Source: Eledone cirrhosa (lineage: Eukaryota). From it: a stretch of 64,000 bases of DNA. The stretch covers positions 330,398,001-330,462,000 of the forward strand of contig OZ024742.1 in assembly GCA_964016885.1 (NCBI GenBank). The letters are read 5' to 3'. Made by a program: the position numbers and the translations under genes. Of this stretch, positions 15-61,000 are shown in pieces. Under the pieces are notes generated by a model. It saw nothing but the letters and a program-made list of their open reading frames with translations, ran no database searches and had not been told where the DNA came from. How positions within the stretch are numbered: position 1 is the stretch's first letter; every line of letters begins with the position of its first letter.

Positions 15-510
15 ATGTGTACTTAGTACTCAGTGAGATATTTACCTATTTTTATATATTCTCCAATCTATGTAGAGAAAACAATTCGTGGTTGCTTACT
101 GCTATTTTTTTAGCAGCCAAGCCATCAACATTTCTGTAATATTCCCGCTTGCTCTAGTGGCCAGGTCACGTATGGGTCACTTTAACGGCTATAACTCTGG
201 TAGATAGCATTATATTTGCGGACCATGGGACATATGTCCTATAGAAAGGAAATAGCTATCTGATGAAATCTACTTTCCGTTGGAAATTCTCTGAATTTCC
301 AATCATTTGTGGATGGAAACCGCCGGTAATAGCATTACGAACAGGTAGATATTTAAATTATTTTCTGATTTATTTAAAAGAATGTTTGTTTGTTCTGCTC
401 ATCAATGTTTATAGTTCTTGTATCTCGAATTAGTACCATAGAACAACAATTGTATTATAGACACCCTATATATATCTATGTGTACTTAGTACTCAGTGAG
501 ATATTTACCT
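15..510 (+). repeat. Direct repeat pair defining a 463-bp unit that contains the hammerhead (pLTR/retrozyme-like)
   Basis: ATGTGTACTTAGTACTCAGTGAGATATTTACCT is identical at 15-47 and 478-510; the second copy runs into (TA)n. Confidence 0.75.
255..333 (+). ncRNA. Type I hammerhead ribozyme motif with extended stem II
   Basis: Stem I GCTAT(255-259)/ATAGC(329-333); core CTGATGA 260-266; stem II ATCTAC/GTGGAT enclosing TTGGAAATT/AATTTCCAA; GAAA 316-319; stem III ACC-gcc-GGT; GUA cleavage triplet at 326-328. Confidence 0.85.
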
Positions 511-514
511 CATT

Positions 515-722
515 TATATATATATATATATATATATATATATATATATATATATATATATATATATATATATATATATATATATATATATATATATATA
601 TATATATATATATATATATATATATATATATATATATATATATATATATATATATATATATATATATATATATATATATATATATATATATATATATATA
701 TATATATATATATATATATATA
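515..722. repeat. (TA)n microsatellite (one of many in the window)
   Basis: Pure TA run of about 200 bp. Confidence 0.99.
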
Positions 723-56513: not shown

Positions 56514-57900
56514 ATGTAAGAAGCTTACCAAAATGGGTGGCTGCTGTTATATGTACATCTTTTCCTCTCCGTGTTTTGATAAGACTTACTCCGGGTATGG
56601 GGTTCAATGCATTGTAGAGTATAAGTATTTGTTTCTTCTCATGAGGCAGAGGTTCTTGGGTGGTACAATCTTCCCTGCATTCATGTTTTCGGCATCCTAT
56701 TCTGGACAACTATTTGATTTCACATGTAGATGCTAAAACATTCGGGCATTTCACCAATATCTGTTGAGGTAACCAAAGGCTAGAGAGGCAATAGGTGATG
56801 TTGTCATGTTTCTCCGGCGTTACACATATATTCCATGATATTCTCCTCCTATTCAATGATAAACTATCATGCTAACATAATTTCCAATAAAAGAAAAAAT
56901 GGTCAGGTGGCCATTTTGTTAAAATGAACCTTGCAATATTCCGTAACATATAGGGATGCGTAATAACAAAAAGTCATGCGCTGCGGGATCTGATGGTGAT
57001 ATTCCCTACCTACTGAAACTAGAACAAAATGATGTCACATATGTTTCTATAATCTTCAATTTAAGCTGGCTTAGTCTATTCGTGAGTCCAGTTTTCTATA
57101 TATTTTCTATAAATTGTCATCCAAACGTGCATCGCATAGGGCAGATATTACATATTATATTTGATGTTGACACCAAATACATGTGTCACATGACGTCAAA
57201 CATACGTGTTACTATGATTTCAGCATAGATAACAAGTCCTCCAAGCTTGGCTTAGTATTCAACGGCAGTTGCATACATCGTTACCAAGTACAGCAATGGT
57301 GAAGGATCCTCTTTTATTCACAAAAGAACAATTTCCTGGACCCCTCATTCACTTATGGGGAACCACATGGTAATATCAACATATATAGTTCATATGGTGT
57401 GATCTGGTGCCATGGTGAGGCCAATCAACGGTAATTAGCAAACGATATTGTATTACGCCATCATACAGAAGCTAAATATATTGTTTCTTACTGCCAATAA
57501 TAGATTCATATGCACACTGGCCATTTTGAAATTGATGTTTTTAGCAATATTATGCACGAAATGTGTTTAGAAATGGGTTGTGACCCAAATGTATTTTTCA
57601 TGTGACGACTCGCTGCTGCTGCGCTTGGGACAGATTTGAAGTCATAAAGTAAACCACCACAAATAAACGAGGCAAAATGCGGATTCGAGAGGCCGAATTT
57701 CGTGGTGAGAGAGTGTTTGTAATTAATTTACAGATAATGATATGCATGAAATAATAAACCGTCTGCAAAAAAGCAGAATAACTGGAGTGTGGGCTAGATG
57801 CAGCCCAACGAAATCATACCGAACACCACAACACACTCAGACACACGCATACCTATATACATACATAAAATACATACATACACACACATATATATATATG

Positions 57901-58027
57901 TTTGACTAAAGAAATTTTAGTCTGATAATGGGGTTTAGAACCCTCAGACAAATGGAAAAAGATGAGTATTGCCGTACATACTCATCTTTTTCAATTTTCC
58001 TGAGGGTTCTAAACCCATTTAGTCAAA
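57901..58027. repeat. Long imperfect hairpin between microsatellites
   Basis: Nested pairings TTTGACTAAA/TTTAGTCAAA, GGGTTTAGAACCCTCAG/CTGAGGGTTCTAAACCC and GAAAAAGATGAGTAT/ATACTCATCTTTTTC. Confidence 0.9.
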
Positions 58028-61000
58028 AATACGGTAAAAGTTATTCTATTTTCTAATTTCAAACCTGCTCACCGTTTCAAAACATACTTATATATATATA
58101 TATATATATATATATATATATATATATATATATATATATATATATATATATATATATATGAATTCACCGTAGAACCCAAAGTGGTGTATTCAAAATGCAG
58201 TCAACTTTACAGCTCTCTCATAAAATGTTACTGTCGTCTTAATATATTTGTAATAGAGACAGCACACAGAAAGAGTAAATAAATGATCTTCAACCTTCCG
58301 TTTCAGTTGCTATTATTCTCGTTTTATTCTACAGGATGTATTAAATAAATCGACCTTTATAATGTTTCTAATTTTGCTCCGTATTTTAGATAAAACTACA
58401 TAGAGAATGTAACAATTGTTTCTAACTATGTCAGATACAAGTGTGTATTTTCATTCGTCTAGTTCATTCAATCCAATGTATTGAAAAGTCTATATTTGAT
58501 GACATTTATTTTATTCATCCGGCATGAGACTAGATTTCTTAATTTCCTCTCTTTAACGTCGCGTTGATTCATTCTACTTCTCTAATCCTGATTTCACCAA
58601 TTTACATAGTACGTCCGTGCATTTCCCGTACATTTGTTTGATGTTCTTCCTTATTTGCTTCGAAATCCTTTGGGCTATCTCTTTTCGTTTAGTTTCTATA
58701 GCTTTATTATTTGTATCTCTTTTTTTTTCATGAGTTGTATTTCTGTATCGATTTCACTAGAAACTGAACGACGATTTTCTTTTTTTTTCCTATATTTTTC
58801 TCTATATCTCTTTTCTGGCTTTGGTGCCACTTTAACGAGCTGTTTATGGAGGCTCCCGTAACCTATGGCGTGTAATGACATGACATTTAGGTTTTGTAGC
58901 TGATGTATTCTCCAAGCTAGATAATAAATGTGCAGATAGTCTGCATGCTAGTTTTCATGACCATGTAGCCTGTATGATAAAGTTGTTCTCTTTGATTGTT
59001 GCTTGTATTTTGATATTCCTTCATGAGTTGATAGACACACTCGTCTGTGTTTCCACTGTGGCTTCTGCATAAATTATATTCGTTAACGTTTGTCACCAAT
59101 GCTCATGTATGTACATTCTAATGTAAAATTCATTCATCCTAGTGAGATTTTAAAAATTGTTAATAGAAGGAATTTGTATCGTATATCCATGTACATTTTT
59201 TTATAAATTGCATATTTTAGATATCATGTTCGCTTTTTTAATCATCTATTCTTAGATATTCTTGATATTTCTTCTAATCGATATTTCTGTTTGTACTGTT
59301 TAATCCTACATTTGTTTGTGCGTATTTTGTAGGTATTCTGGTTTCCAGAAATAAACGACTCCACACAATGCCGTGTCAGAGATAAAGAGGTTTCACAAAG
59401 GAAAAAGTTGATGAATTAATCTTTTCGCAGTCGGAAGGTGACTGGCAGCAGTGTTTGACAAGAGACTGGAAATTCCCATGTCATGAAATACAAGAAGAGT
59501 CACGTTTTTGCTTTATCTTCGTGTTTACTGTGCGTTTGTCCCAGTGTAATGAATATCTTGCTTATTATATGCCAAAATACACTTTCCGTAAAATCCGGAG
59601 TAACGGACGACTATGGGCCAACGGACGACCTAATAATAATATACATGCAATGTTCGATGGGAATAGCAATGTAATTCGTTTAAATGTGCATTTAATTATT
59701 TCGTCACATAGGATTACGCTCTGAGTTCAAATATGAATCATGCTACCTTTGCTTTTCATGATTTCTGCTCGAAATAAAGCGAAGTAAATATCAGGTTTTC
59801 TCATCTATTTACTTGACTCTATCCTCCCAGATTATATCTAAATGTGTGCCAGTCTTACAAATCACCAATGTAGTCAATACGTTATAGTTAAGTTTTCAGA
59901 GTCGTTAGCAAAAACTTTCATTTCATTTTTTCTTTTTTAACCGAATAGTCTCGGGTCAAATGTGATGATACTACTTCTGTTGATAACAATATAAATTACT
60001 GAGTCATTCCATCCCGAAAACGTTTCAAAAATGTTTCTTTTGATCATCCACTTGTATGTGTTGTGCACTCATACACAGAGTACCATAGCTTTAACTTTCC
60101 AAGGTTCAGGTCTCACAATCTATCCTCTCTGTCCTCCCTGAAGTACTAGAAAAATTAAAGCCGATTCCCCATGGCACCTGTTTCGTCACATCTCGAATCC
60201 CTCAGCAAAGTTGATTGGAGTAAACTGAAATTAATTGTCTACTCAAATTAAGAACCAAAAAATGCAACTTGTCATTGAGAGCTCTGCATGGTATACACTT
60301 ATCCCCGCTCCATCATCTCATAGATTTCTGCTTACATGCAAAAAATACAGTTCAAAATATACGAATAAAATAACATTAAATAACTATTTGTCATGATAAT
60401 ATATTTTATTGAGGACAATGTACAGTAATTTTATATATAACACATATGGCGTCAATTATGCCACAGAATGTTAAGTATTATTAATCCTCGAGCAGAGCAA
60501 CGGTCAGGAAAACACAGACTGTTATTCAAACTAAGGATTCAGAAAAGAGACTCATCTAGAGAGATAAAGAGAGAGACAGTCAGACAGAGAGAGTGGAAGA
60601 AATTAAGTAAACTTACCAAATGTCACGTAGCGTTGAACATTTCTTCAGTATGTATCGTCATTTAGATATTCAGAATATATATATATATATATATATATAT
60701 ATATATATATACACACGCACACACACACACACACACACACACATATATATATATATATATATATATATATATATATATATATATATGGGGTATATATATA
60801 TATATATATATATGTATGTGTAAATATTTATATATCTATATATCTATGTATGTATATGTATATATATATATATATATATATATATATATATATATATGTC
60901 TGGGGTGGGGGGATGCGTGTGTTTGTATGTGTGTGCAGTGTATGAGTGTCTATGAACAATGTTATGGTTACGTTTGCTTTATTATATGGCAAACGTAGTT

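What the first reader, a model, noticed from the sequence alone, without database searches (positions are those of the whole stretch)
255..58090. High density of distinct hammerhead-bearing mini-modules, all anchored in (TA)n
Seen: four sequence-unrelated families with canonical CUGANGA cores (255; 17195/17891; 37418; 42657/46379), plus variant or partial motifs (37844, 41043, 41178-41287, 41419-41556). Nearly all abut TA microsatellites and have palindromic stem III or loop III. Several have a U-U apposition at the base of stem II. Inference: many short 'unique' islands between TA runs in this genome may be PLE-mobilised ribozyme relics that target or generate (TA)n. That would be a hidden non-coding mobilome that protein-based annotation misses.
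Basis: partly seen in the sequence, partly recalled or inferred. Interest (0 to 1): 0.75.

Follow-up and report, generated by a model that had tools for sequence, protein, structure and literature searches.

The report
Penelope ends carrying variant hammerheads
The hammerhead-shaped RNA motifs beside TA repeats are real and very common in this animal genome, but six of the ten families here are cut-short ends of ordinary protein-coding Penelope-like jumping genes and two are non-coding tandem repeats that likely hitch-hike on them, a known pattern; the oddest part is one family with over 18,000 copies whose altered core letter is predicted to weaken cutting.

Summary
Observation confirmed: 5 canonical type I hammerheads in the window versus 0.05 in shuffles. 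In an unbiased 1-Mb genome sample, 44 versus 0; 33 of 44 have (TA)n within 200 nt downstream (null 14%), 9 of 44 upstream. The window is a typical slice (P=0.22), implying roughly 10^5 motifs genome-wide. Two motifs were missed (13803, 14847). Of ten families, six are 3' ends (pLTRs) of protein-coding Penelope-like elements (three Hydra-clade, three Neptune-like), two are non-coding tandem retrozyme-like units, two unresolved. So it is mostly truncated Penelope ends, not a hidden non-coding mobilome; about a quarter of inter-TA islands carry them, and a hammerhead-free LINE also ends at (TA)n. Penelope hammerheads, U3-A8, U-U and (TA)n preference (including an octopus Hydra family) are published; this scan noted the same picture elsewhere in this and other genomes. 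New here: a Hydra family with a fixed U4A core (18,366 exact copies versus 72 canonical, a neutral change 166). Cleavage, expression and target-versus-generate are untested.

The parts
1..514 (+). F1: non-coding tandem unit (463 nt here, 478 nt in other copies), ends at (TA)104; hammerhead 255-333, CUGAUGA, A-G at stem II base, GUA site; an inverted partial copy lies just upstream of the window
13608..13939 (-).
14140..14670 (-). 5'-truncated RTE-type LINE without a hammerhead, both ends at TA (control for specificity)
   Evidence: the RTE label is recalled from the protein's look, Pfam gave no hit
14692..16689 (-).
17011..18045 (-). F2: 1.5 copies of a 697-nt non-coding tandem unit between TA runs; hammerheads 17195-17317 and 17891-18032, CUGAAGA, U-U, long branched stem II
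18259..18333 (-). F5 tail-only stub between TA runs
37412..37554 (+). F3: 143-nt 3' stub of a Hydra-clade PLE pLTR; hammerhead 37418-37457, CUGAAGA, U-U, palindromic stem III; this copy has one stem II change
37832..38226 (-). F5: 3' UTR stub of a Hydra-clade PLE; hammerhead 37844-37937 with U3-A8 core UUGAGAA, GUC site, GAUA instead of GAAA in this copy; inverted tail piece 38189-38226
40575..40720 (-). F12: partial copy of a canonical-core family (5' core missing here); partner unresolved
41010..41149 (+). F8: stub of a Neptune-like PLE 3' UTR; hammerhead 41043-41078 with U3-A8 core UUGAAAA, palindromic stem III, GUA site
41178..41369 (+). F5 fold-back: inverted short-end arm plus forward long-end arm, 5' half of the hammerhead lost
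41400..41658 (+). F6 fold-back stub; fuller copies carry CUGAGGA; forward arm ends in (CA)n; partner unresolved
42490..46532 (-). F4: near full-length broken Neptune-like PLE (RT 43865-45058, GIY-YIG 43160-43663) with inverted pLTRs; hammerheads 42657-42695(-, mutated) and 46379-46417(+)
57900..58088 (+). F7: fold-back stub of a 260-nt tandem unit that carries a tRNA-like module in fuller copies; no hammerhead found

Best explanation
These modules are the 3' ends of many families of Penelope-like retroelements (shown for six of ten families) plus two non-coding tandem units that likely borrow the same enzymes, and they likely sit in (TA)n because the Penelope endonuclease cuts there. Steps: (1) shown: each family's hammerhead lies a fixed distance upstream of one or two fixed end points that abut (TA)n; 5' ends are ragged or folded back. 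(2) shown: longer copies of F3, F5, F9 lead into Hydra-clade ORFs and of F4, F8, F10 into Neptune-like ORFs; F1 and F2 are ORF-free tandem units. (3) inferred from published PLE biochemistry: the GIY-YIG endonuclease nicks both strands of a TA run (its own reverse complement), the RT starts at two internal sites of the RNA, one per strand, helped by the TA or TAT that follows each end point in the element, stops early, and the two cDNAs join head to head; this gives a short fold-back with TA on both sides and one long and one short end (125 of 155 pairs). (4) inferred: new ends keep landing in the TA runs left by older ones, giving pile-ups. (5) predicted, untested: the minimal hammerheads cut as dimers through the palindromic stem III and process tandem transcripts; the U4A and C3-A8 forms likely cut poorly yet spread, so cutting is likely not limiting for transposition.
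For: Window 5 vs 0.05; unbiased 100 x 10 kb: 44 vs 0,0,0,0,0; with U3-A8, U4A, U4C cores 67 vs 1,1,0. (TA)5 within 200 nt downstream 33 of 44, upstream 9 of 44, random 14%. Family segments: 145 of 217 with 3' end at TA, 22 of 217 with 5' end, null 3.8%. F3: 28 of 30 loci continue into (TA)n, 2 into element body; partner ORF has RWR, DKT and CxCX5C, the Hydra marks. F9 shares 1,872 nt including the endonuclease with L146. F5 shares about 1,380 nt including the endonuclease between L079 and L234. F8 has a CX4CxxC GIY-YIG about 1.0-1.2 kb upstream in L286, L287, L289, 3 of 7 loci fetched. F10 likewise in L005, the one locus read for this. F1 and F2: tandem and inverted units, no in-line PLE coding in 25 loci each. 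Fold-backs: long+short 125, long+long 6, short+short 1, other 23 of 155. PLE coding makes up 30.9 kb of the 1-Mb sample. Published: Hydra inserts in (TA)n and has hammerheads, Hydra-1_Obim listed (PMC8557442); two RT start sites, both strands cut and extended, hammerhead mutants still insert in vitro (PMC11167929).
Against: No RNA data and no cleavage test. F6 and F12 have no partner shown; F1 and F2 were checked only in the 25 best-scoring loci each with 1.5-kb flanks, so a rare coding parent is not excluded. Clades rest on motifs, not a tree. No clean empty site was found, so targeting versus TA extension is open. RTE LINE ends also abut TA (6 of 7), so part of the association may be a general retroelement bias. 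PMC11167929 reports RT start sites not homologous to the cut DNA, against the TA-pairing step. Folding programs did not return the hammerhead as best monomer fold for F3, F8, F9. The sample held 11 exact F9 30-mers versus 6.1 expected, so the extrapolation may be high.
Confidence: 0.88

Rival explanations
1. The modules are mostly autonomous-free, non-coding ribozyme elements (retrozymes) moving as small circular RNAs: a hidden mobilome.
For: F1 and F2 are ORF-free tandem units; a 310-nt four-copy array in L253; most copies of all families are under 300 nt; retrozyme circles are published (PMC7229834).
Against: Six of ten window families connect to PLE ORFs; short copies have ragged or folded 5' ends typical of truncation; among the most frequent families in the sample, F5 (39 segments), F9 (32), F8 (12), F4 (11) are coding-derived; other frequent families (4, 9, 10) were not traced.
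Confidence: 0.15
2. The elements generate or lengthen (TA)n themselves, by telomerase-like iterative copying of the short TA at the RT start site, rather than only targeting existing runs.
For: Each end point is followed inside the element by TA, TAT or ATAT; the genome is extremely TA-rich (2,203 runs, 5% of bases per Mb); PLE RTs are kin to telomerase (PMC8557442).
Against: Internal tandem junctions carry only 2-3 TA units; 5'-truncated ends also often meet TA, as expected for insertion into a run; 686-700 of 830 TA blocks have no known family end; one F9 copy sits at an AT-rich site without a TA run (L126). No clean empty site either way.
Confidence: 0.15
3. The motifs are chance matches in AT-rich, microsatellite-rich DNA.
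For: The U3-A8 scan alone is not above shuffles (2 vs about 1 per Mb); Rfam models do not hit.
Against: 44 vs 0; recurrent families; in the first 100 of 6,411 F5 matches position 8 is A in 100, position 7 takes all four letters, position 3 is U in 77 and C in 23 (hand count); a related pair of families swaps C3-G8 for U3-A8 with compensated stems (L240 vs L162, L228).
Confidence: 0.02

Closest known systems
Hydra-clade PLEs (Craig et al. 2021, PMC8557442; abstract, passages, section 11 and supplement rows read), including Hydra-1_Obim
   Same: RWK-like and DKT motifs, CxCX5C linker, no CCHH, C-terminal GIY-YIG, hammerhead in the pLTR, (TA)n preference, inverted 5' copy, one-sided tail; the supplement row for Hydra-2_aJap shows the same U before and after stem II
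   Different: At least three families here at thousands to tens of thousands of copies; tails 50-110 nt against 30-40 nt described; U4A and U3-A8 cores not seen in the supplement rows I viewed (only part of the hammerhead table was seen)
Minimal hammerheads of metazoan PLEs (Cervera and de la Pena 2014, PMC4209133; parts 1-2 of 4 read)
   Same: Short stem I, palindromic stem III, unpaired letter before stem II, many families per genome, mostly single truncated motifs, close opposite-strand pairs, U3-A8 variant (about 1,300 in Schistosoma)
   Different: Numbers there are 2,000-9,000 per genome against roughly 10^5 here; G10.1-C11.1 is a minority here (13 of 44, U-U 17 of 44); no TA analysis in the parts read
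Animal non-LTR retrozymes (PMC7229834, part 2 of 6 and passages; bioRxiv 10.64898/2026.07.22.740005, part 1 of 5 and passages)
   Same: ORF-free tandem units with type I hammerheads, proposed PLE passengers: fits F1 and F2
   Different: F1 and F2 are longer (478, 697 nt vs 150-450), have long stem II inserts, and insert as TA-bounded fold-backs; circles not shown
Neptune PLEs (via PMC8557442 passages)
   Same: CX2-5CxxC linker before GIY-YIG, DKG motif, microsatellite bias: F4, F8, F10
   Different: No tree made; Nematis or a Naiad-like endonuclease is not formally excluded for F8 and F10
Poseidon PAc in vitro (Frangieh et al. 2024, PMC11167929; parts 1-2 of 4 read)
   Same: Both strands cut and extended, two RT start sites defining the tail, AT-rich target, hammerhead mutants still insert
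   Different: There the start site is not homologous to the target; here every end point is followed by TA-like letters
Natural hammerhead core variants (Perreault et al. 2011, PMC3088659; passages)
   Same: U3-A8 covariation, U4C, U10.1-U11.1 mismatch known and active
   Different: U4A is not mentioned in the main text (0 occurrences); figure contents not seen

Membership tests
Type I hammerhead (minimal PLE type) | Core CUGANGA...GAAA...UH in type I order with stems I-III | tested here: met
   F1-F4, F10 by eye; F5, F8 with U3-A8; F9 fails at U4
Type I hammerhead (minimal PLE type) | Palindromic stem III allowing a dimer | tested here: met
   5 of 5 window hits, 36 of 44 sample hits; cofold favours stem III or loop III pairing between copies; F9 and F10 are not palindromic
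Type I hammerhead (minimal PLE type) | G10.1-C11.1 pair | tested here: not met
   13 of 44 G-C, 17 U-U, 14 other; U-U is a published tolerated mismatch
Type I hammerhead (minimal PLE type) | Self-cleavage | not testable with these tools
   needs transcription assay
Hydra-clade PLE (F3, F5, F9) | CxCX5C linker and GIY-YIG without CCHH | tested here: met
   all three endonucleases
Hydra-clade PLE (F3, F5, F9) | RWK-like and DKT motifs in RT | tested here: inconclusive
   met for F3; RT of F5 and F9 not recovered
Hydra-clade PLE (F3, F5, F9) | Hammerhead in pLTR, (TA)n insertion, tail, inverted 5' copy | tested here: met
Hydra-clade PLE (F3, F5, F9) | Placement in the RT tree with named references | not tested
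   no reference sequences in the script box; likeness to Hydra-1_Obim judged by eye
Neptune PLE (F4, F8, F10) | CX2-5CxxC linker, C-terminal GIY-YIG with internal cysteines | tested here: met
   (first cysteine changed in the window's F4 copy)
Neptune PLE (F4, F8, F10) | RT phylogeny | not tested
   motif call only
Non-LTR retrozyme (F1, F2) | ORF-free tandem unit with a hammerhead in each copy | tested here: met
   no tRNA in L054, L082
Non-LTR retrozyme (F1, F2) | Expressed as linear and circular monomer RNA | not testable with these tools
   no RNA run was listed for this genome's repeat

The most novel reading that the evidence does not exclude
The most successful hammerhead-bearing Penelope family in this genome spread to tens of thousands of copies with a fixed U4A core, and a fifth of another family with a C3-A8 mismatch, because the hammerhead fold serves as a protein-binding or RT-positioning signal just upstream of the two start sites while cutting is dispensable; this genome then offers matched natural active and crippled ribozymes to settle what Penelope hammerheads are for. 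The alternative bold form is that U4A is a new, protein-rescued active core.
Probability: 0.35. Interest if true: 0.6.

Novelty: new member of a known kind. Interest (0 to 1): 0.36.

Why it matters
It explains a large share of the short unannotated islands of a 3-Gb animal genome: at least 2.7% of sampled DNA is hammerhead-to-end tail and about 3% PLE coding, with roughly 10^5 intact motifs, ten times or more the counts per genome in the papers read except the 32-Gb axolotl. The role of hammerheads in endonuclease-bearing PLEs is stated as unclear (PMC8557442); high-copy families with U4A, C3-A8, U3-A8 and U4C cores make this directly testable. The long-plus-short end rule of fold-backs supports two-strand priming. 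The general picture is published, so the gain is in scale and in the variant cores.

Tried and rejected
Rfam: no hammerhead hit in the window at E<=5 or in 4 loci at E<=0.5; microRNA hits are microsatellite and fold-back artefacts. Genome-sample scans for G3-C8 and A3-U8 cores: 0 each. GAUA instead of GAAA looked common in F5 but was search bias: 16 of 18 unbiased copies have GAAA. F2 is not the pLTR of the neighbouring endonuclease at 15.8-16.7 kb (that belongs to F9). A first tail census (391 segments) was inflated by contaminated library entries and was replaced (29 of 196 entries dropped, 3 added back). Empty-versus-filled searches gave mostly overlapping loci or chance neighbours around TA and outputs were cut: inconclusive. 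Sequencing runs: no RNA holder listed. Contigs of four coded runs showed no other letter at the U4 position at 15% or more, but three runs gave 1-12 low-depth contigs, so this is no evidence for other species. CUGAUGA at 19609 in a LINE leader: no Rfam hit, not a type I hammerhead. F7 monomer folding not better than shuffles (z -0.26). Scanner limits: it misses an unpaired 5' letter before stem II (F10), bulged long stems (F5) and non-type-I orders, so counts are lower bounds; the script machine was lost before this could be redone. Lunse et al. 2017 on small PLE hammerheads was not held and is recalled only; it and unseen figures or supplements may already show U4A. Literature searches for U4A: none found; octopus + Penelope + hammerhead: only PMC8557442 relevant.
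Full report
Setting. The window lies at G000:C3:330398001-330462000 in a 3.0-Gb animal assembly, very rich in (TA)n: 2,203 runs of 10 nt or more per Mb. The window is a pile of retroelement pieces.

Observation. 42657 is the mutated inverted twin of 46379 in a 400-nt inverted repeat around a broken RT + GIY-YIG element. Rfam detects none. In 100 evenly spaced 10-kb stretches from 11 large contigs the scan gave 44 canonical motifs against 0 in five shuffles, bootstrap 27-64 per Mb, about 80,000-190,000 genome-wide. 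Adding U3-A8, U4A and U4C cores gives 67 against 0-1. At least 17 families were seen in that one Mb. Two cautions pull in opposite ways: the sample held 11 exact F9 30-mers where 6.1 were expected, and the scanner misses some forms. The window's five are ordinary for this genome (P=0.22).

TA anchoring. It is real and polar: (TA)5 within 200 nt downstream of the predicted cut for 33 of 44, upstream for 9 of 44, random points 14%; the distance is family-specific. Of 217 family segments 145 end at TA on the 3' side and 22 on the 5' side, null 3.8%. But only 130 of 830 TA blocks and 111 of 443 short islands involve these families (lower bounds), and 6 of 7 RTE LINE 3' ends also meet TA.

What each family is. 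F3 (37418): at least 2,162 candidates; 28 of 30 loci end in TA at the same letter, two run on into the element body; upstream lies an RT-endonuclease ORF with RWR, DKT and CxCX5C, the Hydra marks of Craig et al.. F5 (37844, 41178, tails at 18259 and 38189): core UUGANAA, GUC site, folds as a three-way junction; 6,411 exact matches to the 5' half, and in the first 100, counted by hand, A8 in 100, N7 free, U3 77, C3 23; longer copies reach a Hydra endonuclease. F4 (42657, 46379), F8 (41043, core UUGAAAA) and F10 (13803, missed) lead to endonucleases with a CX4CxxC linker, Neptune-like. F1 (255) and F2 (17195, 17891) are 478- and 697-nt ORF-free tandem and inverted units with at least 2,001 and 3,561 candidates. 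F6 (41419) and F12 (40575) are partial copies of canonical-core families with no partner shown. F7 (57900-58088) is a fold-back of a 260-nt tandem unit with a tRNA-like module and no hammerhead found.

Mechanism. Seven families tested have two end points 50-110 nt apart (F9 a third), each followed inside the element by TA-like letters (F2 showed one). Fold-back insertions pair one long with one short end in 125 of 155 cases, against 6 long-long and 1 short-short (26 of 32 in the unbiased sample). This fits the published in vitro behaviour of a Poseidon PLE: both strands cut and extended, two internal RT starts, hammerhead mutants still inserting. That both strands of a TA run prime one cDNA each is inferred. 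Whether TA is only targeted or also extended was not resolved.

Comparison. PLE hammerheads in many families, mostly as lone truncated motifs, opposite-strand pairs and U3-A8 are in PMC4209133; U10.1-U11.1 and U4C in PMC3088659; (TA)n preference of Hydra, with an octopus family listed, in PMC8557442; retrozymes as PLE passengers in PMC7229834 and bioRxiv 10.64898/2026.07.22.740005. I found no natural U4A in two searches; one relevant paper was not held. That U4 changes lower activity is for U4C and recalled for U4A. Earlier notes of this scan reached the same overall reading in this and other genomes and report scrambled-order hammerheads here, which I did not scan for.

Verdict. Real, non-random and abundant, but new members of known kinds: mostly truncated Penelope ends, a minority of retrozyme-like units. 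The fixed U4A family is the part worth an experiment. Interest 0.36.

Noticed in passing
window 57900-58088; L311 690-1850, L305, L306, L309: 260-nt tandem unit with a tRNA-like module (Rfam tRNA 44-50 bits, ARAGORN) set on a long stem, inserted as TA-bounded fold-backs with long and short ends but no hammerhead found; likely another PLE passenger.
   Followed up: partly
L140:5181, L227 and 5 more loci: Family with a U4C core (CCGAAGA/CCGAUGA), about 5 per Mb.
   Followed up: no
L162:766, L228:2396 versus L240:977: Related families that swap U3-A8 and C3-G8 with compensated stem II and different palindromic loops.
   Followed up: partly
F5 matches genome-wide: 23 of the first 100 have C3 with A8 (19 of them with G7): a mismatch core or a shifted C3-G7 register.
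   Followed up: partly
L253 1980-2910: Four-copy 310-nt tandem array of a canonical hammerhead unit.
   Followed up: no
window 12220-12309: Perfect 33-nt inverted arms facing each other across a TA run; no other copy in the data held (one search tested only the left side).
   Followed up: partly
window 16831-16996: Long near-perfect palindrome of TATG-like repeats between F2 and F9; similar sequence in L088.
   Followed up: no
window 19580-19640: Hairpins and CUGAUGA upstream of a LINE endonuclease reading frame; no Rfam hit.
   Followed up: partly
window 61849-62499 (-): Exon of a sulfotransferase (Pfam PF00685, E 1.5e-25), by recall a heparan sulfate 3-O-sulfotransferase; much of the window may be intron or flank of this gene.
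   Followed up: no
window 2627-7565 (-), 24610-26111 (-), 28100-34050 (+), 38962-40275 (+): Broken non-LTR retrotransposons of at least two kinds.
   Followed up: no
L059, L063, L082, L092, L108, L161, L164, L212: A diverged F8 relative that keeps the UUGAAAA core region but has GCAA in place of GAAA.
   Followed up: no
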